Part shown: one piece after another, positions 43,224 through 62,122 of the stretch | How the letters are laid out: every line of letters begins with the position of its first letter | Position numbering within the stretch: position 1 is the first letter of the stretch | From: Blastocatellales bacterium | GTDB lineage: Bacteria; Acidobacteriota; Blastocatellia; RBC074 | Assembly: GCA_050187295.1 (NCBI GenBank) | Contig: JBFWXQ010000006.1 | Location: forward strand, 110,296 to 174,295 | Direction of reading: 5' to 3' | Length of the DNA: 64,000 bases | The notes under the pieces: model-generated | Seen by the model: the letters and a program-made list of their open reading frames with translations, nothing else | Told to the model about the DNA's origin: nothing | Database searches by the model: none | Program-made: the position numbers and the translations under genes

Positions 43224-46200
43224 TTACCTTTGGCGAAGTCGCTGTTGATTTCGCTTTATGCGTTCAACGTTGCTCGCTCGTATCGCTGAATCGGCGAGTT
43301 CTTCTACAAGAATTTTTTGAGGCTCTGGCAAGGATAAAGGTGTACCTGACAGCAATTTTTTCAATACTTCGTAGGTTTCTCTTCGTTTCAACAACCCCTG
43401 GCTCATGGCTTCCTGCGCATCAAAAGTCAACAGACAATCGAGGCACGCCAGTTCACAGCGTTGATGATGCTCTTCGCTTCTGAAAAGAATTTTCTGCGCT
43501 TCTTCCATCCATTGCCTTCCCATCCCTAACAATTCACGGACGTGACCGGCGCCTCCAGGTACGTTGTCATAAATTACTGCTCCCCATTCGTTGGCTTGAC
43601 AACCGACACCGGTCAGCATCACTCCTAGTTCACGTGTGTCCAATTCGAGCAGCTGTGCTCCAGCAATTTGCAATGCTTGCGCCAGTGTCCGGATAATCGC
43701 TTCTTCTTTGGCCAACAGTGACAAACTGCCTTCAAACGTCAGCAACAGAATGTCTGTAGTTTCGCGCGCCGCCAATGTACGATTGCGCAGCACTGGTGCT
43801 CCTTCATTGGGCTGCCAACAAACGTAATGCTCTTTGGCGGCAGTCAGCGGCGCGTGTGTGGCAAAACCCGAAGGCAGATTTTGCCGCCCCTCACCCGTCT
43901 TAACCTCCGCATCAGCGTAACCGCATTTCAGACAAACGGCGAAGCCGCGCCCGCGCGCCACCAGTTTAAGGGTGTCGTTATCGTCTTCTTCCCAAATCGC
44001 TCCGCTGTTGTACACCAGTAATTCGCCTGCTTCGCGGTAACGCGCGGCAAGGCCGTTCACGCCGGCAAAATGCGCATGCGTTTCCACTTCATTTGCCTGA
44101 TTGCCAAAACAAATTGTCGCGCGTTCGACGCTGCCGATACGCTCCACATCCGTGCTGCGACGCGGCGGATCCCAGGCCGCGCTGCTGAAACCATGCTTAG
44201 GCAACAACATTGGTTGTTCGTTTTGTCTGGCCGCGCTGCCGCAAATCGGACAGGCTCCTAATGGGCGAGAGATTTCGTAATAGAAATGTTTGTTCGCGCA
44301 TTCGGTGAAATGCCCGGTCAGCCCGACGTAGTTGTCAATCGCCAACCCCGTCCAATGTTTGCGCAGTCCGCGCGAAGTAATCAATTTGCCGCCCACCAGC
44401 AATTGCGACCCCGGCACATACTCGCGCAGCGCCATCAAGCCCGGACGTTCCAACCGGAACTGATCTTCTTCACGAATGCGCGTGCGCTCGCCATCGCGAC
44501 TGCCTTCGTCCGGGCGGATCACTTGCAGCTTTTGCAAGCCGATGGGGAAACCGTAACGCGGCAGAAACTGCCGGTCGGCCAAGGCTTCGATCACCGTAGT
44601 GTCGTAAAGCGCGGACAACTGGTAACGGATTGCGTTGGCCTGTCGCTGCGAAAGAGCGTCCCGCCAGGTTTGCAACAATTCGTCATAATCTTCACGCCAA
44701 TCGCACACGGCGTCTTGAAACTGTTCGATCATGGAATTAATACAGGCGCGCCAATCGCCTATTAACGCAAGTGGCGTATGCTGAAGCAATGATTCCAAAA
44801 TCGGCCGATACTGCTTTTCACCCGCGTCGCTCACCCAGCGCAGAAAATCCAGAAAATGCGGCTCCAGACCAGGTTCATTTTGCTCCGGTCGCCACCAGTT
44901 TGTTCGCGCCGGCGGTTGCCAATCTGCTGAGGGCGAACGCAACTCTGGCTTATCGAAACCGGATGTCCATTTTTGCGGCTGCGCTGTGCCGCAAAATGCG
45001 CCCATGCTGCCAAAAGCGCGCATTGCGCCAACCTGCGCGCCGGGCGGATATACATCCTGAAAAAATTTGCCGAGCAGCAGTGCGTGACAGTGGCGCCGTG
45101 CAATGCGTTGCCGGTCGAGCAATACGCGCGGGCTGCGCAGAGTACGTCCGAGGTAATCGCCGAATTGAAAAAACACTGCGCGGTCAAATGGTCGCGGGCG
45201 TGCATACGTCAAAACCACTGATGAACCATCAGCGCGGCGTCCGGCGCGCCCGGCGCGTTGCAGGTAATTGGCTTTGCCCGGGGGCACATTGCCCATCAGC
45301 ACTGCGTTCAGGCCGCCGATGTCAATGCCGAGTTCAAGAGTCGTCGTGGCGCTGAGGATGTTGCGCGCGCCGAGTTTGAACAATTCCTGCAACTGGCGGT
45401 TCTGTTTGGGGCTGAGTTGTGCGCTGTGTTCTTCCGCCCACAGCGCGATTTCAAAAATAGGCGAACGCTGCAATTCCGTTCGCAAGCGTCCGTAGCGTGG
45501 ATCACTGTCGAGTTGTTTCGCCGTCACCGGTTGCAAATCGTTGCAACCCAATTCCGGCGCGCAGCCAAACACAGAACGCGGCCAGATATGGCGTGTTTGG
45601 GCAGATTGAAACCATTGTTCCGGGCGGCGCAATCCGAGCGAGGGGAAGTTCAATCGCAATGCCAAAGCCTGGCCGCCATCCGTTTGTCGCGTGTCAGTTT
45701 CAAGCCAGGGCAATTCGCCCGCGTGTTGGCACAGCGCGCGGAACGCAGCACGCAACGCATCGCGCGAAAATTCCTCGATTAACGCTTCCTCCAATCCGCA
45801 ATTCTTCAACACTTGCGCCGCAAACCAGCGTCGCCGCTGATCCGCTTCCACTCCAACAAAACGTATAACCCAATTGCGTCGCGCCTGCTCTTCGGCAGCC
45901 CAGCGGCCAACAAAAACGCGGTTGAAAGCCCAGGTGCGGTCTTCTTCCGGCGACCCAAGCGTGATGACACCGTCTGACCGCAGCGAATCGCACAGCGCCG
46001 CCAGAAAGTCCCGCCAGCAAACTGTGAAATGCGCACGCACTTCGGCAGGCAAATTGCCCAGCAATTGATTTGGCGCTTCGATTTGTTCCAGACCAGGGTA
46101 CGTGACTTCAAGCAAGCCCAGCGTTTCGACTGATACTGCGCGCCGCAACGGACTGGCCAATTCTCGTCCAATCAACGACCGCAGCCGTGTTTTGACGGCG

Positions 46201-48608
46201 GCAAAATTTAGTTCTCGGATTTGTTCAGCGCGTTCGGTCCAGTCTTTGGCTTCGTATGAATTGATTGTGTCCGGATCAATCACGTCGGTCAGGATTGTTT
46301 GCTGTGCCAACGCCGCCTCCCAATCTTCCAACGCACCGCCCGCTTGATGCTCACGCAATTCCTGACGTAATTCGTCGAGCTTCTTTTCCCAACGGCGGCG
46401 CTGTTCCGGTTGCGTAGCACGCTTCTGTAATTTTTGTTCGTAATCGGCAATATCCAACTCAATATCCGCGATGGTGGCAGCGCTCGAAGGCGAACTTTGC
46501 TGCGCGCAGCGAGCCAGTGCCGCACGTACCAACTGCGTTTCGTGTTGCAAGGTCAGGCGCGGGCCGAGCCGCGCGGCTTCCTGACGGCTGTCGCTGAAAG
46601 CCAGCAAGCGACGTCCGCGCGCGGGCAGCCGTTTCCTGTGCGCGGTGGGGAATTCGGGCATATCAGCCAAGGCTGTTTCCGCCAGAATCGCCAACGTTAA
46701 AGGAGCTGATGCGACAAACGGGCGCCAGGCGTCATCTCCTTTCGCTTCGCAGCAAGGGCAACTGTTAATTTGATACAACGCCAAGCCAGAGGCTGCGTGC
46801 TCACTTGTTCGCACGTCCAGAATTTGCCTGCCGCTTTCGCGCGCGCCACGCCAATCGAAGAATCGCTTCTTGCCGTACCGGTCGTCAGCCACGGGTAACA
46901 AACGCAGATTCGCTTCCTGCGCCGCCAAGGCCACTTCGCCGCAATTGGCGCAGCGATAAAGCGATAGTGTCGCGCTATTGCAGTGAAGGCAATGATCGCT
47001 AAAACCGGCCAGCACATCGCCTAGCCCCGGCAGCTTTAAATTTTCGTTGCCGGTGCAATCCGCGTTCAGACAAACCACCAACCCATCCGTTGGTCGCGCC
47101 AGCAAATGCAGACGATGGGGCAGCAACGGGTAATCGCCGATGTTTCGTCGTGCTGCTGCGCCCAATTGCAAGATCGTAATCGTTGCGCGCAAGGCGTTTT
47201 CGCTGTCTTCACGCCACAACGCCGAGGCCAGTTCGCGCAATGGCAGACGCTTCCGCTCCCACAAAATTTCGGAAGCCTGATGCACGATTTTCGCGTGTGA
47301 CAGCGATTGATGGAGCAGCAATGCGGGCTGATCGCCAGCTTGTCGCTGCGCATCGTTGACCGCCGCCGCAGCCACCAACCGCGGCAATCGCGTTGCCAAA
47401 TGCGCACAGTCATCAGCATCGGTCGCCAGTTGCGGCTTGCCTTCGGCGTCTATCGTCAGCGTCGCAGCCGTCAACCAGGCTTCTTGCGCCAGCATTGCGC
47501 AATCAGGCACGTGCGCCGGATCGGCAACTTCCGCTAACTCAATGCGACGTTGTTGTCCGCGAATGACATTGACCAATTCCGGCGGTTTGCTGAAAAGCGT
47601 GGCCGCGAATTGACGCAATTCTTCGTCGCCGTCCGCGCCTTCGCGGCCAATCGTGGCGGATGTGGCAATGTGCAGCAATTGTTCGGCGCGCACGCCGCAG
47701 CGTTCCGTCAGCCGCCGCAACAACAGGGTGATTTCCGCCGCCAGTGTGCCTGTGTACAAATGCGCTTCGTCCAGCACCACTGTTCGCAGCGCATCGCCGA
47801 AAAAGACCGCGTCCTGGGGGCGGCAGAGCATGTATTCAAGCATCGAGTAGTTGGTAATCAGGATGTCCGGCGCGCGACCAAAGGCCGCGTCGCTCGGCGA
47901 AAGCTTTTGTCCCTTGTGATCCTCAAGCCCGCGCGCTTCTTTTCGCGTGCGTTTGCGGCAAGGATTCCATTCGGTGATGTCTTGATCGTTTGCTGCGCGG
48001 TGGTCTTCTGGAGTTTCGCTGGTGAAGTGGAACAGCGTCACGTCGTTTTGGTCTTGCAGCCATTGGTAAAGCCGATCCATTTGATCGTTCACCAGCGCGT
48101 TCATCGGATACAGGATGATGCACTTGACGCCTGTACCTGTGCCGCGATTGGCGAACAAATCATTGAGCGCCGGGAGCAGAAAGCTTTCCGTTTTGCCCGC
48201 GCCTGTGCCTGCCGTGACGACCAGCGCCGGGCGCGAATGATCGTTGTGAAGCTGTTGCGCCTGGCGAATGGCTTCGAGTTGGTGTGTGTAAAGCTGCCGG
48301 TTGCGCGGCACAGCGTTATCGTGATCCAAATAATTTGTCAGCGTCGCATCAAACAATCCTTGCCGCGCCAGTGAATCCAGCGTCTCGGTTGAGGTTGCCG
48401 CCGGAAACGCGCCTTCCACCCATAACTCACTAACCAACCCGCCGGATTCCGCTGGCCCTGCCCAGAGACTGCGACAAATTTCCGTCAACCTCGGTTCGCG
48501 CACGAAATTGCGATCCAGCGAAAATTCGACCAAGCGGTCGCGTAGGTTATTAGCGAAGGAAAACGCATCGAGTTGAGCAAGATTTCTTTGTTCATTCTGC
48601 TGAGTCAT
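43224..48608 (-). CDS. Large SF2 DEAH-box helicase with C-terminal DUF1998 (DruE/YprA-like)
   Basis: Motifs LYTHQ, TAGTGAGKTE, YPMNALVNDQ, DEAH, TSAT, FSDSRQ, HSAQL, TTTLELGIDIG, QRAGRAGRR, FLPRYGFP and ALREYVPG. DUF1998 signature YDNVPGGAG...CELACLDCLL. Confidence 0.9.
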   Translation of the reverse strand: MTQQNEQRNLAQLDAFSFANNLRDRLVEFSLDRNFVREPRLTEICRSLWAGPAESGGLVSELWVEGAFPAATSTETLDSLARQGLFDATLTNYLDHDNAVPRNRQLYTHQLEAIRQAQQLHNDHSRPALVVTAGTGAGKTESFLLPALNDLFANRGTGTGVKCIILYPMNALVNDQMDRLYQWLQDQNDVTLFHFTSETPEDHRAANDQDITEWNPCRKRTRKEARGLEDHKGQKLSPSDAAFGRAPDILITNYSMLEYMLCRPQDAVFFGDALRTVVLDEAHLYTGTLAAEITLLLRRLTERCGVRAEQLLHIATSATIGREGADGDEELRQFAATLFSKPPELVNVIRGQQRRIELAEVADPAHVPDCAMLAQEAWLTAATLTIDAEGKPQLATDADDCAHLATRLPRLVAAAAVNDAQRQAGDQPALLLHQSLSHAKIVHQASEILWERKRLPLRELASALWREDSENALRATITILQLGAAARRNIGDYPLLPHRLHLLARPTDGLVVCLNADCTGNENLKLPGLGDVLAGFSDHCLHCNSATLSLYRCANCGEVALAAQEANLRLLPVADDRYGKKRFFDWRGARESGRQILDVRTSEHAASGLALYQINSCPCCEAKGDDAWRPFVASAPLTLAILAETALADMPEFPTAHRKRLPARGRRLLAFSDSRQEAARLGPRLTLQHETQLVRAALARCAQQSSPSSAATIADIELDIADYEQKLQKRATQPEQRRRWEKKLDELRQELREHQAGGALEDWEAALAQQTILTDVIDPDTINSYEAKDWTERAEQIRELNFAAVKTRLRSLIGRELASPLRRAVSVETLGLLEVTYPGLEQIEAPNQLLGNLPAEVRAHFTVCWRDFLAALCDSLRSDGVITLGSPEEDRTWAFNRVFVGRWAAEEQARRNWVIRFVGVEADQRRRWFAAQVLKNCGLEEALIEEFSRDALRAAFRALCQHAGELPWLETDTRQTDGGQALALRLNFPSLGLRRPEQWFQSAQTRHIWPRSVFGCAPELGCNDLQPVTAKQLDSDPRYGRLRTELQRSPIFEIALWAEEHSAQLSPKQNRQLQELFKLGARNILSATTTLELGIDIGGLNAVLMGNVPPGKANYLQRAGRAGRRADGSSVVLTYARPRPFDRAVFFQFGDYLGRTLRSPRVLLDRQRIARRHCHALLLGKFFQDVYPPGAQVGAMRAFGSMGAFCGTAQPQKWTSGFDKPELRSPSADWQPPARTNWWRPEQNEPGLEPHFLDFLRWVSDAGEKQYRPILESLLQHTPLALIGDWRACINSMIEQFQDAVCDWREDYDELLQTWRDALSQRQANAIRYQLSALYDTTVIEALADRQFLPRYGFPIGLQKLQVIRPDEGSRDGERTRIREEDQFRLERPGLMALREYVPGSQLLVGGKLITSRGLRKHWTGLAIDNYVGLTGHFTECANKHFYYEISRPLGACPICGSAARQNEQPMLLPKHGFSSAAWDPPRRSTDVERIGSVERATICFGNQANEVETHAHFAGVNGLAARYREAGELLVYNSGAIWEEDDNDTLKLVARGRGFAVCLKCGYADAEVKTGEGRQNLPSGFATHAPLTAAKEHYVCWQPNEGAPVLRNRTLAARETTDILLLTFEGSLSLLAKEEAIIRTLAQALQIAGAQLLELDTRELGVMLTGVGCQANEWGAVIYDNVPGGAGHVRELLGMGRQWMEEAQKILFRSEEHHQRCELACLDCLLTFDAQEAMSQGLLKRRETYEVLKKLLSGTPLSLPEPQKILVEELADSAIRASNVERIKRNQQRLRQR

Positions 48609-48623
48609 TGTTTGGCTCCGGAA

Positions 48624-51600
48624 TTAAAGGTTTTGGAGAAGGTGCAAGGTCAACAGCCGTCGCAGCGATGCGTGACGAACGGCCAACGCTAAATTATTCT
48701 CGTGTACTGGTTCCAGGTTGGGTTGTGTCAAAGCGGTTGTCGCTCGCGCCAAAATGCCCTGAGTAATAAAGGGCTGAGCGAGGTTCAAATCAGTGGCGGC
48801 AGCGGCAAGCAAAGCGTTTTTGGCATGGTTGACGTTTGGGCCGCCCGCGAAATGTCGGCGCAATTGTTCCAAAAGGATGCTGCGGTGCGGATGCTGCCAA
48901 ACGCGCAGCACTTTGGCTAAGAGCAACGGATCAATGTTGGCCAGTCGTTTGGCCGCATCAATCAGATAGTCCGATAGTTCTTCGTCGCTGTCCACTTCTG
49001 CCAGGGCAAACAACGTTTGGCGCGCTGTTTCAGCATCCGGCTGCCATTCGCGCAGCAAGGTTCGCAGCGCGGACAACCAGGTTTCATTGCACGGCGGCGT
49101 TTCCAATCCTTCCGGCAAGGCTTCGTCCAGCAGCCAAGCGCGCAGAAAGGCGACGGAGTGTTGAGGAATCAACGAACGCAAGACTGCCAGCGCATCTGGT
49201 TCCAGCAACGGCAGATGAAACCAGCGAATCAGTGCTGCTGTTTGTCGGGCATCTTGCATAGTTAATTCGGAAAGCGCCTGTATCCAGCGACGTTCTGGCC
49301 ACCATGCACCCAGCCTTGCACCTGCGAAGGCCACAGCCACAGCCAGCGGCTCGGTGCAATCGTCCGGCAAGTCGCACACCCACCACCAAGCGTCTTCGGC
49401 GGCATCGCTGGTTTTTGGTATTAGCGAAATCAGTTTGCCGCTTGCATCCCACCACCACACTGCATATTGCTCGTCCGGTTGGATTCGCTGGTGAAGTTGC
49501 AAGCGAATCAGCCGCGCTGTGCCGTTGGGCAATGATTCGCAAATTGCATCAGCCACGATACCGGTGTTGACGACGCTTCCGGCTACCCACAACGAGCGAC
49601 TAGCCGGAGAAAAGTTGAACATTTGCCGGACGCGCAGGGGAGCGCCCCAGCCGTGCAATTCCCCCAAAGAGCCGATGCGGCGCGGCGTTCGATGCGATAC
49701 GCCATCACCTTCAAACAAGAAAAGCTGATTGAGGTTCAAGGCTTGTGTTCCCCAATTGGCAGGAACAGCAAGTTTGAATAAATCGCGTTTGGCCTGCTCG
49801 ACGGTCAATCGGCTGTGTTTGTTGAGTGGTTGCCAACCTTCTGTTGTTAGATGGGCGGCTCCAACGACTTTCAATTTTACCGGTCGCCGGATGGAGCATC
49901 GCTGTTCGTTTTTTTGCAGGCCGATTCGAATGTCCAATTGGCTCGCATCCAGTTCAGGAGTAATGATGAGCGGCCCGGCAATGGTCGTGGCCTGCCCGTC
50001 CGGTTTGAGTTCGACTGCGCTCCCACGGCAGCGGGCGTAACGAACAGACACTTCAGGTGGATGAATGATCTTGATCTGAAACTTTCTGCCCCAAACGATG
50101 TCGCGGTCATCCCCTGGGAAAACTCCAACCTGGTTGGCCCAAACCGGAACGCCAGCGGTTTGTTGCAGATTCGGAGTCCATAGCAATTCACCATTGAGCG
50201 ATGCGCGAAGTTGTGTCGGCCAACTGCCGGCAGGCAAACGGTACAGTTTGGCTTGTTGCAAATCGGTCAATTGCCATTCGTTTGGGTGCGGTTCGATGGT
50301 CAAGTCCGCGGCGGTCAGCAGCGCATAGGAGCTATTCACGCTCAGATTCGCAGCGTAAGCGTCGGGCAAACGCGCGCCTGACGGCAAACGGTAAAGCACT
50401 ACGTCTTCATCCCTCGGCCAGCATTCCAGATCGCAACTGGCAACGGTTTCGCCTTTTGCGTTGACCAGACTGGCTATGACAGTCGGTTGATCGAAGGGAA
50501 GAACGACAGTTCGCGATTGCGCTGGCGAATAACTGCCGTTTGGCTGTTGCAGCAATCGCTCCGTCAGTCGCCCGCCAATCCATACATCGTAAAAAGCTTC
50601 GCTCAGGTTCAAGGCCGGATTGACCACAAGCTGACAGGTGAAATGCGGCGCGCCGCCATCATGCCAGCGCAACACAGGCTGCGTGATGAACGACTCGGGC
50701 AGCGGCGTATCTTCGCTCGGCGTGATGGCGGATGCTGTTGCCAGCGTCATCGCATCGTCAACCCATTCGGGCAACAGCCAGGGACTGTTTTCCAGCTTTG
50801 ACCGCGCCTGTTCCGGGGAAAGCGATTTGAATCGGAGCGCCTGCAAGTCTTGCCACAATTGCCGAAAACTTTCGCTGTCTTGCCGCAATGCTTCGACGGT
50901 TTGCGGCGGTTGCCCATCCAGCCAATCTGGCAGCCGCTGCCGTAAGCCGCGATGCGTAAAGCCGAATTGCAGAAAGACTGTGTTGACCCAGCGTTGCGTC
51001 CCGAGTTGATCCAGAGCGTGACGCAAATGAAAACGGTTGACGGCGGCTCGCAACAGATTGCGCAGTAGTTCCGTGGGTTGTCCTTGCGTAAACAACAGGC
51101 TTTGCGTTTCGGCTTCGTTTGAAACAGTTGGGTCGAAATGCCCTGTGGCGACGCACGGCCACAGTTCACCATCCACAGTTTTACGTCGTCCGGTTTCGCT
51201 CAACCAGAACAGCAGCAAAAGTCCAATGGCCTCGTCTCGTCTGACCTTTCCTGCGGCAGTGTCAAAGCTTGCGTCATTCGTGGCGCGTTCTTGGAGCGTC
51301 GCCGGGTCCAGCCGCTTCAACCAAACGCGCAACCAGATGAAGTCGTAATCGCTCGGTTGTAATTCAGTCAATGACCAGCATTCGCGCCCGATTTGTTGCG
51401 CATCCGCACGAGCGTTGAGCGCACGAACGGCATTGCCGGTCGCCATCAACAAAGCCTGGCTTTCATCCAAATCAACCGCGGCAAAAATATCCTGACTCTT
51501 CCCGCTCGATTGAATAAGCGCGTTAGAAGTGACTGGCAAAGCAATCGGCAACGGCGGCTGCGCGGCGCATAAAGCGGAAACCATTGGATCAATCCATTGT

Positions 51601-52286
51601 GGTAAACACCAAGGGCTTTCTGCCAATCGTTGGCGGAAAATTTCTACAGACAGAGAGTCGTCTTGGTAGGCTCTGCATGATTCCCAGAATTGTTGAAACA
51701 AGCGACTGCCTGTTTGTGGGTCCAACAATGCTTTGATAACGACGGGTCTCTCAATGCCCATCAGCCAACCTGACAATCGGTGCGTGATGTCTTTTCCGGT
51801 AAAACCTATTTGCGCAAAGACAAGTTTGCGCAGGCAGTCATGATCGAGATCATTTCTGGCACAAGCGCCTCGTAACCGAAGTTTTCGAGCGGCTTCGATC
51901 AAAGCCTGCCGATGAAAAGCCGATAGATCATCACCGTCAAAAAGCTCAGAGCGAGTTTGCGTCGAAAATAAAATTGACGCAGGAACAAACCAATCGCTAT
52001 CACGCGGCAAGCAGCGCCGAGTGTATTCTGATGCGAAAAGCAACAACAGGCTGCCGAATGCGGCACGATGTGGCGGCGATAGCTGCCAACGTCTGACCAT
52101 GCCTGCATCGAGATTTGATGACCAGTCAATCAACCAACATAGGTCATCATCATCAGCACCTAATTCGGCCAACGACCAAACAGAAGAACCATGTTTTAGA
52201 TCGCGAACCAGGCGAGCGATAATCTGACAGGCATCACGCAACGTTAGATCATCAGATTTGGCGGCAAGCTGGGAGAAGATTTTCAT
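48624..52286 (-). CDS. 1220-aa protein of unknown function, co-transcribed partner of the helicase (DruH-like position)
   Basis: Uninterrupted 3.66-kb ORF ending 15 nt before the helicase start. It has a duplicated N-terminal helical domain, a beta-rich middle and a helical C-terminus. Confidence 0.8.
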   Translation of the reverse strand: MKIFSQLAAKSDDLTLRDACQIIARLVRDLKHGSSVWSLAELGADDDDLCWLIDWSSNLDAGMVRRWQLSPPHRAAFGSLLLLFASEYTRRCLPRDSDWFVPASILFSTQTRSELFDGDDLSAFHRQALIEAARKLRLRGACARNDLDHDCLRKLVFAQIGFTGKDITHRLSGWLMGIERPVVIKALLDPQTGSRLFQQFWESCRAYQDDSLSVEIFRQRLAESPWCLPQWIDPMVSALCAAQPPLPIALPVTSNALIQSSGKSQDIFAAVDLDESQALLMATGNAVRALNARADAQQIGRECWSLTELQPSDYDFIWLRVWLKRLDPATLQERATNDASFDTAAGKVRRDEAIGLLLLFWLSETGRRKTVDGELWPCVATGHFDPTVSNEAETQSLLFTQGQPTELLRNLLRAAVNRFHLRHALDQLGTQRWVNTVFLQFGFTHRGLRQRLPDWLDGQPPQTVEALRQDSESFRQLWQDLQALRFKSLSPEQARSKLENSPWLLPEWVDDAMTLATASAITPSEDTPLPESFITQPVLRWHDGGAPHFTCQLVVNPALNLSEAFYDVWIGGRLTERLLQQPNGSYSPAQSRTVVLPFDQPTVIASLVNAKGETVASCDLECWPRDEDVVLYRLPSGARLPDAYAANLSVNSSYALLTAADLTIEPHPNEWQLTDLQQAKLYRLPAGSWPTQLRASLNGELLWTPNLQQTAGVPVWANQVGVFPGDDRDIVWGRKFQIKIIHPPEVSVRYARCRGSAVELKPDGQATTIAGPLIITPELDASQLDIRIGLQKNEQRCSIRRPVKLKVVGAAHLTTEGWQPLNKHSRLTVEQAKRDLFKLAVPANWGTQALNLNQLFLFEGDGVSHRTPRRIGSLGELHGWGAPLRVRQMFNFSPASRSLWVAGSVVNTGIVADAICESLPNGTARLIRLQLHQRIQPDEQYAVWWWDASGKLISLIPKTSDAAEDAWWWVCDLPDDCTEPLAVAVAFAGARLGAWWPERRWIQALSELTMQDARQTAALIRWFHLPLLEPDALAVLRSLIPQHSVAFLRAWLLDEALPEGLETPPCNETWLSALRTLLREWQPDAETARQTLFALAEVDSDEELSDYLIDAAKRLANIDPLLLAKVLRVWQHPHRSILLEQLRRHFAGGPNVNHAKNALLAAAATDLNLAQPFITQGILARATTALTQPNLEPVHENNLALAVRHASLRRLLTLHLLQNL

Positions 52287-52545
52287 GACGGCTCAGACAA
52301 AATTTGCTCCTCATCTTTACGATGAAAGATGAATAAGCAATCGCTTTGGTGGGGCACGAATTTCGAGAAGGGGGCACGGTTGAGTTATATGCACTCGCTG
52401 GGTCAGCAGTTCGGGCGAGCCAGTTAAGTCTATCTTGATTCTTAAAACCAGAGCAATAGTTTAGTCGGGTTGTAGCTAATAATTACTAAAAACGCCCTCT
52501 CTTGCGTTGCGAGATTTTGTGATGAGCGACATAATTTGTCGCGCC

Positions 52546-53037
52546 ATGAAACTCTTCAGCATCGGTCACAGCAACGCGACGATTGATTTCTTTCTCAATC
52601 TGCTTCGGCGGCATGAAATTGCCGTTTTGGTGGATACGCGCAGCCAGCCGTACAGCCGTTACAATCCGCATTTCAGACGCGAAGCGCTGAAACAATCCGT
52701 CCATCAACAAGGCATCGAATATGTCTATCTGGGCAATCGCATTGGCGGGCGGCCCGAAGGCGAAGAGTTTTATTTCCAATCCGGCAAGGTGGATTATGAC
52801 GCGGTGGCCGAATCGCCGGAGTATCTGGCGGGCATTGACCAATTGCTGGCGCTGGCCGAACATCGCCGCGTCGCGTTTCTGTGCAGCGAAGCCGATTACA
52901 AACATTGCCATCGGTATTGGCTGATTACCCGCACGCTGACCCGCCGCGGCATCGAAGTCGAACACATTCTGCATTCGGGCGAAGCCGTCAAATCTTCGGC
53001 GGCGGAATTTGAACCGGCGCAGCCGAGCCTTTTCTAA
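52546..53037 (+). CDS. DUF488 family protein (copy 1)
   Basis: Motifs FSIGHS, LVDTRSQPYSR, YLGNRIGGRP and LCSE....CHR. An alternative start is ATG 52522. Confidence 0.88.
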   Translation: MKLFSIGHSNATIDFFLNLLRRHEIAVLVDTRSQPYSRYNPHFRREALKQSVHQQGIEYVYLGNRIGGRPEGEEFYFQSGKVDYDAVAESPEYLAGIDQLLALAEHRRVAFLCSEADYKHCHRYWLITRTLTRRGIEVEHILHSGEAVKSSAAEFEPAQPSLF

Positions 53038-53046
53038 AGCAACGCT

Positions 53047-53484
53047 ATGGCCACGGTCTTCACCATCGGATTTACCAAAAAGAGTTTGCGAGAGTTTGTC
53101 GAAAGCTTGCGAGCCGCTGGCGTACGCAGAATCATAGACGTGCGGCTTCGCAATACGTCGCAGCTTGCCGGGTGGAGCAAACAACCGGATTTCGCTTATT
53201 TGCTGGAATCTGGATTCGGCATTGCGTATGAACATCATCCCGAATTTGCGCCGACGGATGACATCCTGGACGCTTACAAAAACGGCGCGGATTGGGCGAA
53301 ATACGAAACACAGTTCAACGAGTTATTGAAAGCGCGCGCGCCGCAAACCCAAGCGCGCGAATTGCTGGCCAAAGAAGCCATTTGTCTGCTCTGCGCCGAA
53401 CCCACACCGGAGCGTTGTCATAGGCGGCTGGTAGCCGAATACCTGCGCGAGCTTCAGCCTGAAACGGAAATCAAACATCTGTGA
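53047..53484 (+). CDS. DUF488 family protein (copy 2, different subtype)
   Basis: Motifs FTIGFTKK, IDVRLRNTSQLAG and LLCAE....CHRRLVAEYL. Confidence 0.88.
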   Translation: MATVFTIGFTKKSLREFVESLRAAGVRRIIDVRLRNTSQLAGWSKQPDFAYLLESGFGIAYEHHPEFAPTDDILDAYKNGADWAKYETQFNELLKARAPQTQARELLAKEAICLLCAEPTPERCHRRLVAEYLRELQPETEIKHL

Positions 53485-54206
53485 GCACGGTCAAGGACAT
53501 CACCATTCTGGCGTTGACCAAAATGCACGGCGGAGTTTGCACGGCGGGAATTGACGCCGAAGGCCGCTGGGTGCGCCCGGTGCGGCCTCGCACCGAACAA
53601 CGACCTTCGCGCGAAGGCGTTTCGGATTACAGTTTGTTGCCGCTGGATTTCTTTCACGGCGGAAAATCGCATCTGGTCAATCTGGGCGTGACGCGATTTC
53701 AATTTTCCGACGCTGCGCCGCATCCGCCGCACGTCGAAGATTGGACGATTGATATGAGTCACAAACCCGAACACCTGAACAAACTCAGCGAAACAGAGCA
53801 GGCGCAGTTTCTGGCTGCGCACGCGGAAGACGATCTTGCGCCGCTCTGCCATCGTCACGAACGTTCGCTGATGCTCGTTCAACCCGACGGCTTTTCGTTT
53901 TCCTTCTGTCCGAATCAAACGGGCGACGACGTTTTGGTTCGGGCTTCGTTCGATTTGCGCGACGAAAGTTTTGCCGACATTGGCTGCACCGATTTGCGAA
54001 TGCGCGCGCTGGGGCGAAAGCTGCTGGCCAAAACCGGCGGCGGCAACGTTTCGCTGACCGATGCGGATTTCCGGCGACGCGGAAAGCAAACGACGTATTT
54101 GACGCTGGGATTGTCGCGGCTGTTTCAAAACAAACACTGGCTGATTCTGGTCGGCGTGCATTCGCTGCCGGAACTGGCCGTAGAGATTGATTACAATCAT
54201 CTTTGA
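53481..54206 (+). CDS. Dual OB-fold-like protein
   Basis: N-terminal ILALTKMHGGVCTAG...WVRPV and C-terminal YLTLGLSR motifs resemble the dual-OB family found beside DUF488 genes. The GTG start overlaps the upstream TGA. Confidence 0.6.
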   Translation: MSTVKDITILALTKMHGGVCTAGIDAEGRWVRPVRPRTEQRPSREGVSDYSLLPLDFFHGGKSHLVNLGVTRFQFSDAAPHPPHVEDWTIDMSHKPEHLNKLSETEQAQFLAAHAEDDLAPLCHRHERSLMLVQPDGFSFSFCPNQTGDDVLVRASFDLRDESFADIGCTDLRMRALGRKLLAKTGGGNVSLTDADFRRRGKQTTYLTLGLSRLFQNKHWLILVGVHSLPELAVEIDYNHL

Positions 54207-54216
54207 TCGTTCGGCC

Positions 54217-56448
54217 ATGCCTGACCTTGAACGCGCGTTGCGCGAACAATTTGGTTTTGATTCGTTTCGCCCGAACCAGCGCGAAGTGATCGAGCACGTG
54301 TTGGCGGGGCGGCATACGTTGGCGGTGTTGCCGACTGGGTTGGGCAAATCGTTGTGTTACCAATTGCCAGCGCAGTTGTTGCCGGGATTGACGCTGGTCA
54401 TTTCGCCGCTGATTGCGTTGATGCAGGATCAGGTGGAGGCTTTGTTGCGGCGCGGGTTTAGCAACGTCACCAGTTTGAGCAGCGCGCTCAGCCCGGCGGA
54501 ATTAGGACGACGATTGAGCGAAATCGAAAGCGGCCAGCACAAACTGGTTTATGTCGCGCCGGAGCGTTTCGATTCGCCGCGTTTTCGGCAACTGGTGCGG
54601 CAATCGGAACTTTCGCTGGTGGTGATTGACGAAGCCCATTGCATCAGCCAATGGGGACACGATTTTCGTCCGCATTACCGGACTTTGTTGGCGCGGTTGC
54701 CGGAATTGCGGCGCGCGACGTTTCTGGCGGTGACGGCGACGGCGACGCTGGAAGTGCAAAACGACATTGCGGCGACGTTGAGTTTGCCGTCGTTGGAACG
54801 AGTCATCGCCGATTTCGACCGCCCCAACCTGCGATTGGAAACCATCAAGGCCGACCAGCGCGAAGACAAAGACAAGCAATTGATCGAAATGTTGAAGCGT
54901 GAACCGGGCGCGGCGATTGTTTACGCCAGCACGCGCAAAGAAGCGGCCACCGCGCATCAATTGTTGCTGCAATCGGGAATTGACGCGACGTTGTATCACG
55001 CGGGACTCAGCGCCAGTCAGCGCGCCGAAGCCCAACAACGATTTTTGCAGGATGAATGCCGCATCATCGTGGCGACTGTCGCTTTCGGACTTGGGATAGA
55101 CAAACCGAACGTGCGGCGGGTGATTCATTACAATGTGCCGGGTTCGCTGGAGAATTATTACCAGGAAGCCGGGCGCGCCGGACGCGACGGCGACGCGGCA
55201 ATTTGCACGTTGTTTTATTCGCAATCCGATGTGCGAACGCAGCGTTTTTTGCTGGATCAGGCGTACCCAGAATCAAAAGTGGTTGGGCGGCTTTACGGCC
55301 TGTTGCGCGAAGCCGCGCCGCTGGCGGTGGCCGTGGGCGATTTGGCGACGGCCAGCGAGACGCCGGAAATTGCGGTCAACGCCGCGTTGCAATTGCTGCA
55401 CGAACAAGGTCACATCGCATTGACCGCCGACGGCAAATACGCGATGCCTGAACAGGACGACGTTGATTGGAAGCCGGATGTCCGCGAATTGAATGCGCGC
55501 CGTTTCAGAGCGAACGAACGACTGAAAAAGATGATCGCTTATGCGCTGGATCAAAGATGCCGTCGCGCGGCGATTCTGGGTTATTTCGGCCAGCGATTTT
55601 CGCCGCCGTGCGGAACGTGCGATGTCTGTGACGCGAAAACGTCCGAGCATCCATTGCCGATTGAGGTCATTGCTCGTCAAACGCCGAATCATAAAGCTCG
55701 ATTGATTTTGCAAACTGTCGCAGAATTGAAAGGGCGTTATGGACGAACGCTGGTTGTGGAATTGCTCACCGGCAGCAAACGTAAAAGAATTTTTGAACTT
55801 GGCCTGGATCGTTCGCCAAATTACGGGGCGTTGAGCGCTTGTCGGCAGGATCAGGTTTTGGAATGGGTGGACGGCCTTGTCGCGCAACAGCTTCTGCAAG
55901 TGACCGCAGAAGAATATCCGCGGCTGCTGATTACTGAAGCTGGTTGTCGCCGTTTGGAGTCAGAGGCTCAAGCGCCATCAGCCGACCAGGAACAGAATGC
56001 CAGCTTGGTTCCGAAAGGCGAAGTGTTGTTTTCAGACACTGTCACGGCGGCTGAGAAAACTTACAGAATTGGTGTGGAGCAAACCGCCGACGGATCGCGT
56101 TGTCTGGTCATAGCCGAAGAGTCTGCGACTGAGCCTGTTGGCACAATCGCGCGAATGGTGATTTCTGAAAACGACGCAGAAGAGTTTTGTCGGAGCCTGA
56201 AGACGGCGCTGCAACTGCTGGGGTTGGAACAGAGTCAGGCGCGGAAACGCCAGGACGAGATTAAACGGCAGTACGCGAAAGCTTACGAGAGATGGGAACC
56301 GGAGGAAGATCGTGCATTGAAAAACGGGTTCAAGGATGGGATCAGCATCAACAGATTGGCAGCGACCTTTCAGCGACAGCCAAGCGCTATTAGATCGCGG
56401 CTGACAAAGCTGGGATTGCTACAGTCCGACGGTCAGGAAGACGATTGA
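54217..56448 (+). CDS. recQ: RecQ family helicase with non-canonical C-terminus
   Basis: Motifs [67 protein letters not shown], Zn site CRR...CGTCDVC and an RQC domain. No HRDC seen. Confidence 0.9.
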
Positions 56449-56471
56449 GATCAACGCGGAGAGATATTTTG

Positions 56472-56951
56472 ATGAGTGAACTGAAACAAGTTGTGATTTA
56501 CACGGACGGAGCTTGTTCCGGCAATCCGGGGCCGGGCGGTTATGGTGCAGTGTTGTTATTCAACGGGCATCGCAAGGAATTGTCAGGAGGTTTTCGCCGC
56601 ACGACAAACAATCGAATGGAATTGCTCGGCGCGATTGAAGCTTTGCGCGCGTTGAAAGAAAGTTGCTCGGTCAAACTGCACACCGATTCGCAATACATCG
56701 TCAACGCAATTGAAAAAGGTTGGGCGAAACGCTGGCAGGCGAACGGCTGGATGCGCAACAAGAAAGAGAAAGCCGTCAACCCGGATTTGTGGGAACAGTT
56801 GTTGACGCTGTGCCAACAGCACAAAGTCGAATTCGTCTGGGTCAGGGGGCACAACGGGGACAAGGAAAATGAGCGCTGCGATCGGTTGGCGGTGGCTGCC
56901 GCTCAGCAACCGAATCTGCCCGCCGACGACGTTTACGAAGGCAGCAGTTAA
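56472..56951 (+). CDS. rnhA: Ribonuclease HI
   Basis: Motifs [33 protein letters not shown] and WVRGH...NERCD. Confidence 0.96.
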
Positions 56952-61070: not shown

Positions 61071-61273
61071 AATTTTGAAAAATGACAGCCAGGAAATCGC
61101 ATTGTACTTATTTGTGCCTGTTCAATCTAAGCTGGAATTGACAGGTCATTGCCATCAATCTGAAAAACTGCTTGCCCTTGTCGGCCAAGCGAGTAGAATC
61201 GCGGCTTGCAATTTCAATTCAGCATCTGCTCTCGCTGGCAAGTTGCCCCCAAATTTGTTCGCGGATATTCGTT

Positions 61274-62122
61274 ATGAACCATCTGATGCTCAGAAACTTC
61301 GATCATTCGGGATATTACGAAACCCGTTTGATCCTGATGGTGATCAGCCTCGCCATCGCAGCCTATTTCCATTACTACAAAAGAGACCGGCGCTTTTTGC
61401 TGATGTTTGGCATCGGTGCTTTGTTGAATGTGATAGGCAAGTTCGGAGTGTTGGCCGGGGATTTGAATCCAATTGCGTCGGCAACGATTTTCGGCGCTAC
61501 CTTGCCGACGGTCATTGCTTTGATTTGCCAGGGAGTTTTTGAGGGCGGAACTGTCAGTCTGTTTGCTTTCTGGTATGCCGACTTGCGGTTGGCCAAAGTC
61601 AGGTCCAAGGAGTGGTGGCCGTTTTACGGATTTTGTGCTGTGGTTGTGATGTTTGCCTTCATCGTGGGCCTGGTGTCACGCGGGCGATCAATCACCTGGC
61701 AACGTCCGATCTTTGCTCCATATTTGATTCTGATTATTACGCTGATCATTTTCTTCAGTCTGATGGTCGCCTGGCAAAAGAACGACATTTCATCGCTGGC
61801 CAGCTTTTTCGCAGGTCTGTTGTTGTTCGCCATCTTGAATTACGAACCGATGCACTTGATGGGAGCGCGTTACATAGGCGAACCGGCCACACCCGAACCG
61901 GTCGCCGCCGGAGGTCTGGCGCAAATCCTGCTGATGTTTTTGTCGCATATTTTCGAGGCGGCTGGGGGAAAGCTGCATTATTTCATGTTGCCTTATGCCT
62001 TCGGCTGGATTGCTCTGCGCGAACCTCAAAAGAGCAAGCGCGAGCGATTTTCGACCCAGCATCTTGCCGATTTGACGACACGCGGTTATCGGAAAAAATC
62101 CAACTTCACTGAAGACAATTAA
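61274..62122 (+). CDS. Polytopic membrane protein of unknown function
   Basis: About 7-8 hydrophobic segments. The probable start is ATG 61274 (ORF track 61172). Confidence 0.65.
   Translation: MNHLMLRNFDHSGYYETRLILMVISLAIAAYFHYYKRDRRFLLMFGIGALLNVIGKFGVLAGDLNPIASATIFGATLPTVIALICQGVFEGGTVSLFAFWYADLRLAKVRSKEWWPFYGFCAVVVMFAFIVGLVSRGRSITWQRPIFAPYLILIITLIIFFSLMVAWQKNDISSLASFFAGLLLFAILNYEPMHLMGARYIGEPATPEPVAAGGLAQILLMFLSHIFEAAGGKLHYFMLPYAFGWIALREPQKSKRERFSTQHLADLTTRGYRKKSNFTEDN

What the first reader, a model, noticed from the sequence alone, without database searches (positions are those of the whole stretch)
43224..52286. Two-gene giant helicase system: 1220-aa unknown protein plus 1794-aa DEAH/DUF1998 helicase, with no visible nuclease
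Seen in sequence: two very large co-oriented ORFs 15 nt apart, wedged between housekeeping-type genes. The helicase has all SF2 motifs, several Cys clusters and a terminal DUF1998 Zn site. Established knowledge: DUF1998 helicases are core parts of the Druantia (DruE), DISARM (DrmA/DrmB) and Dpd (DpdJ) systems, and type III Druantia is a two-gene druH-druE unit with a large uncharacterised DruH. Inference: this is either a remote Druantia III homolog or an undescribed two-component anti-phage/anti-plasmid system. I see no HKD, HNH or PD-(D/E)xK motif in either protein, so the effector activity is unexplained. This is the best candidate for a new system in the window.
Basis: partly seen in the sequence, partly recalled or inferred. 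Interest (0 to 1): 0.8.

Follow-up and report, generated by a model that had tools for sequence, protein, structure and literature searches.

The report
Compact nuclease-less Druantia III-like defence pair
The two giant genes are a compact, nuclease-less version of the known Druantia type III anti-phage system (a DruE helicase plus a very diverged DruH-like partner), so this is a further member of a known defence family that current annotation models miss, not a new kind of system.

Summary
Two co-oriented minus-strand ORFs, 1220 aa (48624-52286) and 1794 aa (43224-48608), lie 15 nt apart with a GGAG before the second ATG.

The helicase is a clear DruE: PADLOC DruE3, 755 bits, E 5.6e-227. It stops about 70 residues after the MZB/DUF1998 zinc site, so it lacks the two PLD nuclease domains of type III-A DruE.

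The partner hits no DruH model in PADLOC, NCBIfam YjiT_fam or Pfam. Three things still tie it to DruH:
- Its conserved N-terminal helical domain matches the DruH N-domain profile-to-profile (87.5 %, E 3.6e-6; controls P >= 0.07).
- Its confident AlphaFold model (pLDDT 89) has the DruH layout: helical N-domain (duplicated here), Ig-like array, helical C-domain.
- It sits directly upstream of a compact DruE in 23 of 27 informative loci, spread across at least ten phyla.

These loci include plasmid, IS and integrase contexts and neighbours from DISARM, RM and Pgl systems. In the window, the adjacent divergent operon matches the PADLOC candidate system PDC-M45.

Published work already defines this layout as Druantia III-B (compact DruE without PLDs, plus DruH). 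A nuclease-less mycobacterial DruH-DruE pair has been shown to defend against phage. Verdict: a new member of a known kind, of moderate to low interest.

The parts
48624..52286 (-). druH-like partner gene (1220 aa, P0001)
   Evidence: ORF, translation. No hit in PADLOC, Pfam or NCBIfam. The family has 1020 representatives at E<=1e-3. AF2 model pLDDT 89.4.
51561..52190 (-). N1: first copy of the helical N-terminal domain (residues ~33-242), keeping E87-x-x-R90-R91 and Q159-I-G-F-T
   Evidence: BLASTP of residues 1-280 against 281-560: E 5e-23, 32 % identity. Motifs. Present in only a minority of family members.
50730..51389 (-). N2: second, family-wide copy of the helical N-terminal domain (residues ~300-519). 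It is the DruH-N-domain homolog, with invariant or near-invariant E364, R367, R368, W376, R422, Q440 and G442.
   Evidence: hhalign against the DruH N-domain: 87.5 %, E 3.6e-6, controls P>=0.07. Most conserved part of the protein. Domain model pLDDT 93.6, no PDB fold match.
49302..50684 (-). Beta-rich Ig-like domain array (residues ~535-995)
   Evidence: Secondary structure of the AF2 model. Foldseek hits are chains of Ig-like domains such as CSF-1R, KIT, ICAM-1, LILRB3 and phage tail or Big domains.
48627..49289 (-). C-terminal all-helical domain (residues ~1000-1220). By analogy with DruH this is the DruE-binding domain (inferred).
   Evidence: AF2 model. No sequence signal against the DruH C-domain. 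The role is inferred from the DruE-DruH cryo-EM complex (10.64898/2026.05.13.724313).
48609..48623 (-). 15-nt intergenic spacer with GGAG ribosome-binding site; the two genes form one operon
   Evidence: Sequence.
43224..48608 (-). druE gene: compact YprA/MrfA-family SF2 helicase (1794 aa, P0002) without PLD nuclease domains
   Evidence: PADLOC DruE3 PDLC00037, 755 bits, matched only up to profile position 1705 of 2055. BLASTP to canonical DruE ends at residue 1663 of 2041. PDB 9tu7 (DruE) 304 bits. Clade support 100/100.
47643..48284 (-). RecA1 (DEAD/DEAH) domain, residues 109-322, with GAGKT 136 and DEAH 280
   Evidence: Pfam PF00270, 67 bits. Motifs.
45234..45428 (-). RecA2 core (Helicase_C), residues 1061-1125, with motif VI QRAGRAGR at 1117. 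The roughly 740 residues between RecA1 and RecA2 hold the inserted domains and three CxxC motifs.
   Evidence: Pfam PF00271, 46 bits. Motifs.
43431..43682 (-). MZB / DUF1998 zinc-binding domain, residues 1643-1726. The protein ends 68 residues later.
   Evidence: Pfam PF09369, 28.9 bits against a cut-off of 24.2. CLDC at 1722.

Best explanation
This is a two-gene Druantia type III-like anti-phage module with the compact 'III-B' layout. A druH-like gene is followed 15 nt later by a druE gene. The DruE helicase ends just after its MZB/DUF1998 zinc domain, so it lacks the PLD nuclease domains of III-A DruE.

Shown here:
- the identity of the helicase;
- homology of the partner's N-terminal domain to DruH;
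- the partner's DruH-like predicted architecture;
- the tight, widespread genetic linkage of the two gene families;
- their mobile or defence-island contexts.

Inferred from published work on III-A systems and on the nuclease-less M. smegmatis pair:
- DruE loads on exposed 3' single-stranded or forked phage replication and recombination intermediates and unwinds them 3'-to-5' using ATP.
- The partner docks on DruE through its C-terminal helical domain.
- The variable Ig-like array serves recognition.
- The conserved N-terminal helical domain (two copies in this protein) binds ssDNA ends and possibly trims them.
- Together they block phage DNA replication or circularisation.

With no nuclease in DruE, any DNA degradation would have to come from the partner's N-domain or from host nucleases. 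Alternatively, unwinding alone may be enough.
For: **Helicase**
- PADLOC DruE3 at 755 bits; every other family scores far lower (DpdJ 92, DrmA 65).
- PDB DruE 9tu7 at 304 bits.
- phmmer gives 280-310 bits to III-A DruE against 140-145 bits to ARMADA I helicases.
- In the ML tree the compact helicases form a 100/100 clade. That clade groups with III-A plus one divergent helicase, to the exclusion of ARMADA I, at 100/100.

**No nuclease**
- The profile match ends at position 1705 of 2055.
- Clade members are 1668-1810 aa.

**Partner**
- hhalign of the family profile against the DruH profile gives 77.7 %, E 1.9e-5.
- N-domain against N-domain gives 87.5 %, E 3.6e-6. All cross-domain and reversed controls give P >= 0.07.
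- Invariant E-x-x-R-R...W...R...Q/E-x-G motifs align between the two families.
- Two bona fide DruH proteins (an E. coli DruH and PDB 9tud) also match each other only in the N-domain.
- The AF2 model (pLDDT 89.4) shows helical N, Ig array and helical C. Its Foldseek hits are Ig-domain arrays, including ICAM-1; Loeff et al. (10.64898/2026.05.13.724313) report ICAM/NCAM-type Ig similarity for DruH.

**Linkage**
- A compact DruE lies directly downstream in 23 of 27 informative loci.

**Context**
- The pair sits in different neighbourhoods in close relatives: L006 at 74 % partner identity against the window.
- Contexts seen: a plasmid flanked by IS elements; next to an integrase and primase; next to a DISARM-like set and a TIR protein; next to type III RM, PglW and a BrxC/D-like gene.
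- In the window it is next to a PDC-M45-like cluster.
- Near-identical helicases occur in Burkholderiales and Vulcanimicrobiota, which indicates horizontal transfer.

**Literature**
- III-B is defined as a compact DruE lacking PLDs, plus DruH (10.64898/2026.05.13.724758).
- The Type III-like branch has 'most frequently no nuclease domain' (10.1101/2025.09.15.676423).
- MSMEG_1253/1254 (DruE 1667 aa, no nuclease domain) defends against phages (PMC13316683).
Against: - The partner fails every sequence model of DruH: more than 10 PADLOC DruH3 HMMs, NCBIfam NF038336 and Pfam PF27205/PF27201. Canonical DruH controls score 868-1672 bits on the same models.
- Homology is detectable only in the N-domain and only at moderate probability. 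The Ig region gives P 0.026 and the C-domain gives no signal.
- No structural superposition on a solved DruH was possible, because 9tud is not in the Foldseek library.
- Membership of the published III-B clade (GIH50614.1, MSMEG_1254) could not be tested.
- Three loci carry a partner homolog with no helicase nearby: L011, L023 and L025.
- No phenotype data exist for this family.
- The III-A literature disagrees on mechanism. Three DruH roles have been proposed: exonuclease, ATP-gated ssDNA binder, and protein sensor. Whether the PLD nuclease is essential or dispensable is also disputed. The transferred mechanism is therefore uncertain.
Confidence: 0.8

Rival explanations
1. An independent two-component helicase system. 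The large partner would be unrelated to DruH and would resemble it only by convergence (helical domains plus Ig repeats). The system would then have sensing and effector logic different from Druantia.
For: No DruH HMM hit for any of about 100 family members scanned or precomputed. No C-domain or Ig-region sequence signal. The helicase clade is separate from III-A with 100/100 support.
Against: The N-domain profile-profile match has clean controls and shared invariant residues. Domain order, gene order and spacing are the same. The helicase is the sister clade of III-A DruE. Canonical DruHs are themselves alignable to each other only in the N-domain.
Confidence: 0.08
2. A housekeeping DNA-repair helicase of the MrfA/YprA type with an accessory protein, not an immune system.
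For: The helicase shares the MZB domain and the SF2 core with MrfA (PDB 6znp, 60 bits). One flank in the window is metabolic. In L006 the pair sits among ribosomal-protein and metabolic genes.
Against: NCBIfam repair and secretion-neighbourhood helicase models score far below their cut-offs (98.8 against 874). The best profile is DruE. Distribution is patchy across at least ten phyla, with near-identical copies in different phyla. Contexts are variable, mobile or defence-rich. No MrfB-like exonuclease is present.
Confidence: 0.03
3. The functional unit is larger than two genes. The nuclease-less pair would work together with the divergently transcribed DUF488-DUF488-DuOB-RecQ-RNase HI cluster, which would supply the missing nucleic-acid-cleaving step.
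For: The two operons share a 220-bp divergent intergenic region in the window and in L007. The neighbour matches the PADLOC candidate system PDC-M45 and contains an RNase H. Other loci carry nuclease genes in trans near the pair: PLDc_2 in L009 and L020, and a NERD-containing PglW in L034 and L036.
Against: The adjacency is seen only in the window and its relative L007. It is absent from L006 (74 % identical partner) and from all other loci. The pair alone is the conserved unit. The mycobacterial two-gene system is sufficient for defence (PMC13316683).
Confidence: 0.09

Closest known systems
Druantia type III-B / 'Type III-like' branch (Bell et al. 2025, 10.1101/2025.09.15.676423; Himpich et al. 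2026, 10.64898/2026.05.13.724758), with the M. smegmatis MSMEG_1253/1254 system (PMC13316683) as the probable experimental example
   Same: Two genes in the order large partner then DruE. DruE is compact (about 1670-1800 aa) with RecA1, inserted Zn-rich domains, RecA2 and MZB/DUF1998, and has no PLD domains. The two genes overlap or are tightly spaced.
   Different: Clade membership with the published III-B representative could not be tested. The partner here carries a duplicated N-terminal domain and is 1220 aa, against 1132 aa in M. smegmatis. The host is an uncultured bacterium whose closest relative by this locus is an Acidobacteria MAG; it is not an actinomycete.
Druantia type III-A (E. 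coli and P. aeruginosa DruH-DruE; PDB 9tu7 DruE, 9tud DruH)
   Same: Same gene order. The DruE helicase is homologous over RecA1 through MZB. The partner has the same three-part layout, and its N-terminal helical domain is homologous.
   Different: DruE lacks the roughly 350-380 C-terminal residues that carry PLDi and PLDa. The partner is not recognised by the PADLOC DruH3, NCBIfam YjiT_fam or Pfam PF27205/PF27201 models. The helicases share only about 25-30 % identity.
ARMADA type I/II (YprA-like helicase + BrxHII-like helicase + PglX-like methyltransferase)
   Same: A large YprA-family helicase with inserted Zn-binding domains, belonging to the same super-clade as Druantia.
   Different: No BrxHII-like or PglX-like genes lie next to the pair. 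ARMADA I helicases score only 140-145 bits against P0002 and fall outside the clade.
MrfA/YprA DNA-repair helicase (PDB 6znp) and DISARM DrmA/DrmB
   Same: SF2 core plus the MZB/DUF1998 zinc domain.
   Different: The helicase is more than twice the size of MrfA and has Druantia-specific insertions. There is no MrfB, no split DrmA/DrmB and no methyltransferase. Model scores are far below the cut-offs.

Membership tests
Druantia (any type) | DruE: a large YprA/MrfA-family SF2 helicase matching DruE profiles | tested here: met
   PADLOC DruE3 PDLC00037, 5.6e-227, 755 bits. DruE1 519, DruE2 334, DruE4 293 bits. PDB DruE 9tu7 2.4e-89.
Druantia (any type) | MZB/DUF1998 zinc-binding domain near the end of the helicase module | tested here: met
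   Pfam PF09369, 28.9 bits against a cut-off of 24.2, residues 1643-1726. CxxC at 1559 and 1722.
Druantia type III | Exactly one accessory gene (druH), about 1100 aa, directly upstream of druE and co-oriented with it | tested here: met
   1220-aa ORF 15 nt upstream on the same strand. The same arrangement occurs in 23 of 27 informative loci.
Druantia type III | Accessory protein recognised as DruH by family models (PADLOC DruH3, NCBIfam NF038336 YjiT_fam, Pfam PF27205/PF27201) | tested here: not met
   No hits for P0001, even at E<=10 in PADLOC. None of 34 family members hits DruH. No precomputed PF27205/PF27201 hits. Positive controls score 1672 bits (PADLOC) and 868-1272 bits (NCBIfam).
Druantia type III | Accessory protein homologous to DruH at the profile-profile level | tested here: inconclusive
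   N-domain: 87.5 % probability, E 3.6e-6, with clean controls. Whole profiles: 77.7 %. The Ig array (P 0.026) and the C-domain give no significant signal.
Druantia type III | DruH architecture: N-terminal helical domain, array of Ig-like domains, C-terminal helical domain | tested here: met
   AF2 model, pLDDT 89.4: helices 23-241 and 279-516, strands 538-995, helices 1000-1219 in P0001 numbering. Foldseek hits are Ig arrays. No superposition on solved DruH was possible.
Druantia type III-A | [quoted passage not shown] | tested here: not met
   The profile match stops at 1705 of 2055. The BLASTP match to canonical DruE ends at 1663 of 2041. No HxK(x)4D motif. No PLD Pfam hit.
Druantia type III-B | Compact DruE lacking the PLDs, plus a single DruH-like partner | tested here: met
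   1794-aa DruE ending 68 residues after the MZB domain. The definition is taken from 10.64898/2026.05.13.724758.
Druantia type III-B | Phylogenetic placement with the published III-B representatives (GIH50614.1; MSMEG_1254) | not testable with these tools
   Those sequences could not be fetched, and Table S1 of Bell et al. is truncated in the held copy. The local tree shows only a clade that is sister to III-A and distinct from ARMADA I.
Druantia (any type) | Confers phage resistance | not testable with these tools
Support is indirect, from defence-island and mobile contexts.
DISARM | Split DrmA helicase and DrmB (DUF1998) with DrmC and/or a methyltransferase | tested here: not met
   DrmA models score at most 65 bits. 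MZB is fused to the helicase. No methyltransferase lies in the operon.
Dpd (DpdJ) | DpdJ equivalog match and a 7-deazaguanine modification gene cluster | tested here: not met
   NF041067 scores 79 bits against a cut-off of 800. No dpd biosynthesis genes are nearby.
ARMADA | YprA-like helicase adjacent to a BrxHII-like helicase and a PglX-like methyltransferase | tested here: not met
   Neighbours are a molybdopterin oxidoreductase and the PDC-M45-like operon. ARMADA I helicases score 140-145 bits and are excluded from the clade.
MrfA/YprA repair helicases | A helicase of about 750 aa, alone or with the MrfB exonuclease | tested here: not met
   The protein is 1794 aa. TIGR03817 scores 98.8 bits against a cut-off of 874. 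PDB 6znp matches only 98 residues.

The most novel reading that the evidence does not exclude
The partner may belong to a large, unannotated DruH-like lineage: about 1000 clusters at 50 % identity, invisible to the PADLOC, NCBIfam and Pfam DruH models. This lineage is dedicated to nuclease-less DruE helicases. Its conserved N-terminal helical domain (E-x-x-R-R...W...R...Q-x-G, duplicated in this protein) is the only candidate catalytic module in these systems. If so, either the partner and not the helicase is the DNA-processing effector, or defence needs no dedicated nuclease at all. That would make this clade a natural experiment for the current dispute over whether Druantia III requires DruE's PLD nuclease.
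Probability: 0.3. Interest if true: 0.55.

Novelty: new member of a known kind. Interest (0 to 1): 0.33.

Why it matters
Current defence-finding tools need a DruH hit to call Druantia III. This pair, and the roughly 1000-cluster partner family behind it, would therefore go unannotated. A profile built from this family would recover many compact Druantia-like systems in Acidobacteriota, Chloroflexota, Verrucomicrobiota, Patescibacteria and other poorly studied phyla.

Four 2026 preprints disagree on mechanism: whether DruE's PLD nuclease is needed, and whether DruH is an exonuclease, an ATP-gated ssDNA binder or a protein sensor. Naturally nuclease-less pairs with a conserved (here duplicated) DruH-type N-domain are convenient material for settling that. 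The finding does not reveal a new kind of system.

Tried and rejected
1. **Direct family assignment of the partner.** PADLOC (E up to 10), Pfam and NCBIfam gave no hit. Scanning 34 family members gave only stray PglW, MzaA and JetB hits in single members.
2. **Sequence search of PDB with partner profiles.** Nothing found, although DruH 9tud is in that copy.
3. **Foldseek of the full model.** Against PDB and BFVD it returned only generic Ig-array matches with low TM. Foldseek of the N2 domain alone found no match (best E 1.1). The solved DruH structures are evidently not in the April-2026 fold library, so the structural membership test could not be completed.
4. **First profile-profile run.** The shallow family alignment (A1) gave only 0.9 % probability. 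The signal appeared only with a more diverse profile.
5. **Mapping the published PaDruH putative active-site residues (R22, K28, E64, E220).** This failed because the numbering does not fit the P. aeruginosa DruH sequence I retrieved.
6. **Looking up the III-B classification in Bell et al. Table S1.** The held copy is truncated.
7. **Looking for actinobacterial III-B loci on plasmids.** The Rhodococcus and Chlorohelix hits are ARMADA type I, not III-B. tblastn of the partner against plasmids found nothing at database-wide E<=1e-3.
8. **Promoter and terminator scans.** No more matches than chance.
9. **Literature search for the DUF488/DuOB/RecQ operon.** Nothing found.
10. **Rejected classifications.** DISARM, Dpd, ARMADA and MrfA repair; see the membership tests.

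Full report
**Observation**

The window holds two minus-strand ORFs exactly where stated: 48624-52286 (1220 aa, P0001) and 43224-48608 (1794 aa, P0002). A 15-nt spacer containing GGAG separates them. P0002 has GAGKT at 136, DEAH at 280, SAT at 317, QRAGRAGR at 1117 and six CxxC motifs. Pfam finds DEAD, Helicase_C and MZB (DUF1998) domains, and the protein ends 68 residues after MZB. Neither protein has a PLD HxK(x)4D motif or any Pfam nuclease domain.

The upstream flank is not housekeeping. It is a divergent five-gene operon (DUF488, DUF488-N3a, DuOB, RecQ-like, RNase HI; 52507-56951, +).

**The helicase**

- P0002 matches the PADLOC DruE3 model PDLC00037 at E 5.6e-227 (755 bits). DruE1, DruE2 and DruE4 score 293-519 bits. 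DpdJ, DrmA and Cas3 models score below 100 bits.
- The match stops at profile position 1705 of 2055. BLASTP to a canonical III-A DruE (Rhizobium plasmid, 2041 aa, itself 2245 bits full-length on the same model) ends at residue 1663.
- The missing tail is the part that published work assigns to the two PLD nuclease domains.
- NCBIfam repair, Dpd and DISARM equivalogs are far below their cut-offs.
- By phmmer, P0002 scores at least 1049 bits against 13 other compact helicases found next to partner homologs, 280-310 bits against III-A DruE, and 140-145 bits against ARMADA type I helicases.
- An ML tree puts the 14 compact helicases in a 100/100 clade. That clade groups with III-A plus one divergent helicase, to the exclusion of ARMADA I, at 100/100.

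**The partner**

P0001 hits nothing in PADLOC (even at E 10), Pfam or NCBIfam. None of 34 homologs hits a DruH model. Their precomputed Pfam column lacks PF27205/PF27201, which every canonical DruH carries. Positive controls behave as expected: canonical DruH scores 1672 bits on PADLOC DruH3 and 868-1272 bits on NCBIfam NF038336. By family models it is therefore not a DruH.

Three other lines of evidence tie it to DruH:

1. **Profile-profile comparison.** With a diverse family profile (A4, 66 sequences) against a DruH profile, hhalign gives 77.7 %, E 1.9e-5. Domain by domain, the partner's N2 domain against the DruH N-domain gives 87.5 %, E 3.6e-6. All cross-domain and reversed-profile controls give P >= 0.07. 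The invariant residues of both families line up: E364-x-x-R367-R368...W376...R422...Q440-x-G442 against DruH A-E-W-F/Y-R-R...W...R-P...E-G-G.
2. **Calibration with known DruHs.** An E. coli DruH matches the solved DruH 9tud only over its N-domain (residues 14-266). N-domain-only similarity is what divergent DruHs show.
3. **Predicted structure.** AlphaFold2 with 51 homologs gives a confident model (pLDDT 89.4, pTM 0.68). In P0001 numbering it has helical domains at 23-241 and 279-516, a beta-rich array at 538-995 and a helical domain at 1000-1219. Foldseek hits are chains of Ig-like domains such as CSF-1R, KIT, ICAM-1 and LILRB3. This is the layout described for DruH by cryo-EM: N-terminal helical domain, six Ig-like domains, C-terminal helical domain, with ICAM/NCAM-like hits.

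The N-domain is duplicated in P0001 (BLASTP E 5e-23 between residues 33-242 and 300-519). Both copies keep the E-x-x-R-R and Q-x-G-F-T motifs. Most family members have only one copy. N2 is the most conserved part of the protein, and the Ig array and C-domain are more variable.

The N2 domain alone folds with pLDDT 93.6 but has no match in the fold library. That library predates release of the DruH structures, so a direct superposition was not possible.

**Family size, linkage and context**

- A profile search of 1.84 billion representatives finds 1020 proteins at E <= 1e-3 and 647 at E <= 1e-30. The core is about 950 aa and the N-terminal extensions vary. All that carry a name are 'hypothetical protein'.
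- Across loci from assemblies, GTDB genomes and a plasmid, 23 of 27 informative loci have a compact DruE (1668-1810 aa) directly downstream. Three loci (L011, L023, L025) have an orphan partner. One locus (L015) has a different large helicase upstream.
- Hosts span Acidobacteriota, Chloroflexota, Verrucomicrobiota, Planctomycetota, Patescibacteria, Melainabacteria, Bacillota, Deltaproteobacteria, Gamma-, Beta- and Alphaproteobacteria, and Vulcanimicrobiota. Near-identical helicases occur in different phyla.
- The closest relative (74 % partner, 84 % helicase identity; an Acidobacteria MAG) carries the pair in an unrelated neighbourhood. A 63 % relative shares the window's neighbourhood.
- Elsewhere the pair is flanked by IS elements on a Roseomonas plasmid and lies next to an integrase and primase in Thioploca. 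It also lies next to a DISARM-like set and a TIR protein, and next to type III RM, UvrD/GajB-like helicases, a BrxC/D-like ATPase, a PLDc_2 protein and a full-length PglW.
- In the window, the divergent neighbour operon matches the PADLOC candidate system PDC-M45 (M45B 171 bits, M45C 164 bits, M45A 35 bits). Its RecQ-like gene matches DpdF and PsyrT models.
- Partners diverge faster than their helicases (74 against 84 %, 42 against 64 %, about 25 against 37 %). The same pattern is reported for DruH against DruE.

All of this argues for a mobile defence module and against a housekeeping repair role.

**Comparison with the literature**

- Bell et al. [quoted passage not shown]
- Himpich et al. 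[quoted passage not shown] They also find the PLDs dispensable in a III-A system.
- Li and He (PMC13316683) show that the M. smegmatis pair MSMEG_1253/1254 blocks phage DNA circularisation and replication. Its DruH is 1132 aa. Its DruE is 1667 aa, and the only domains reported are DExD/H, Helicase_C and DUF1998.
- The window's pair fits this layout. I could not test whether it falls in the same clade as those representatives.

**Mechanism**

The following is inferred, not shown here. DruE probably loads on exposed 3' ssDNA or forked phage replication intermediates and unwinds them 3'-to-5'. The partner probably docks through its C-terminal helical domain, as in the DruE-DruH complex. The Ig array is the likely recognition surface. 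The conserved N-domain is the likely ssDNA-end binding or processing module. Loeff et al. assign 3'-5' exonuclease activity to DruH and tentatively to this domain. [quoted passage not shown]

Because DruE here has no nuclease, there are three options: the partner supplies the nuclease, host nucleases do, or unwinding alone suffices. The possibility that the adjacent PDC-M45-like operon contributes is weak, because that adjacency is lineage-specific.

**Verdict**

This is a real, intact, operonic Druantia type III-like (III-B layout) module with a highly diverged DruH-like partner that current HMMs miss. It is a new member of a known kind. Interest is moderate to low. Its main value is for annotation, as a new partner-family profile, and as natural nuclease-less material for the open mechanistic dispute.

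Noticed in passing
window 52507-56951 (+): A divergent five-gene operon: DUF488, DUF488-N3a, DuOB, RecQ-like, RNase HI. It matches the PADLOC 'phage defence candidate' PDC-M45 (M45B 171 bits, M45C 164 bits, M45A 35 bits). The RecQ-like gene hits DpdF (504 bits) and PsyrT (395 bits). Together with the Druantia-like pair it forms a small defence island. The same adjacency occurs in L007, which has an extra RNase H gene.
   Followed up: partly
window 62200-63147 (+) and 61172-62122 (+): A type II-like N6/N4 DNA methyltransferase (PADLOC MTase_II, 78 bits) sits next to an unassigned 316-aa ORF, about 10 kb from the pair. This could be a restriction-modification remnant or an orphan methylase.
   Followed up: no
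L034 17144-21124 and L036 17078-21073: In a Burkholderiales MAG and a Vulcanimicrobiota MAG with near-identical compact DruE genes, a full-length PglW (NERD plus two kinase domains; PADLOC 1030 bits) overlaps the end of druE. This may be a three-gene variant or a fusion with a Pgl/BREX-2 island.
   Followed up: partly
L009 6970-9063, L010 7806-9827, L022 7785-9851: A UvrD/GajB-like helicase of about 670-700 aa lies directly upstream of the partner gene in three loci from different lineages. In L009 it is followed by a PLDc_2 gene and preceded by DrmA/DrmB-like genes. It may be a recurrent accessory component.
   Followed up: no
P0044 (Thioploca ingrica THII_2050; L012 10001-12835) and P0050: Some partner homologs have acquired transcription-machinery domains. 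P0044 has a CarD/TRCF RNAP-interacting domain inserted at residues 819-869 (E 2e-11). P0050, a 1602-aa member, has an RNAP alpha-CTD and sigma-70 region 4 at its N-terminus.
   Followed up: no
L011 (= L026), L023, L025: Orphan partner homologs (1043-1115 aa) in Blastocatellia and Heliomicrobium MAGs have no DruE-like helicase within the 6-10 kb of available flank.
   Followed up: partly
L016, L019, L033, L035: Several Chloroflexota and Planctomycetota loci have the compact druE, and in L035 also the partner, split into 2-4 ORFs. The cause may be decay, frameshifts in the MAG assembly, or insertions.
   Followed up: no
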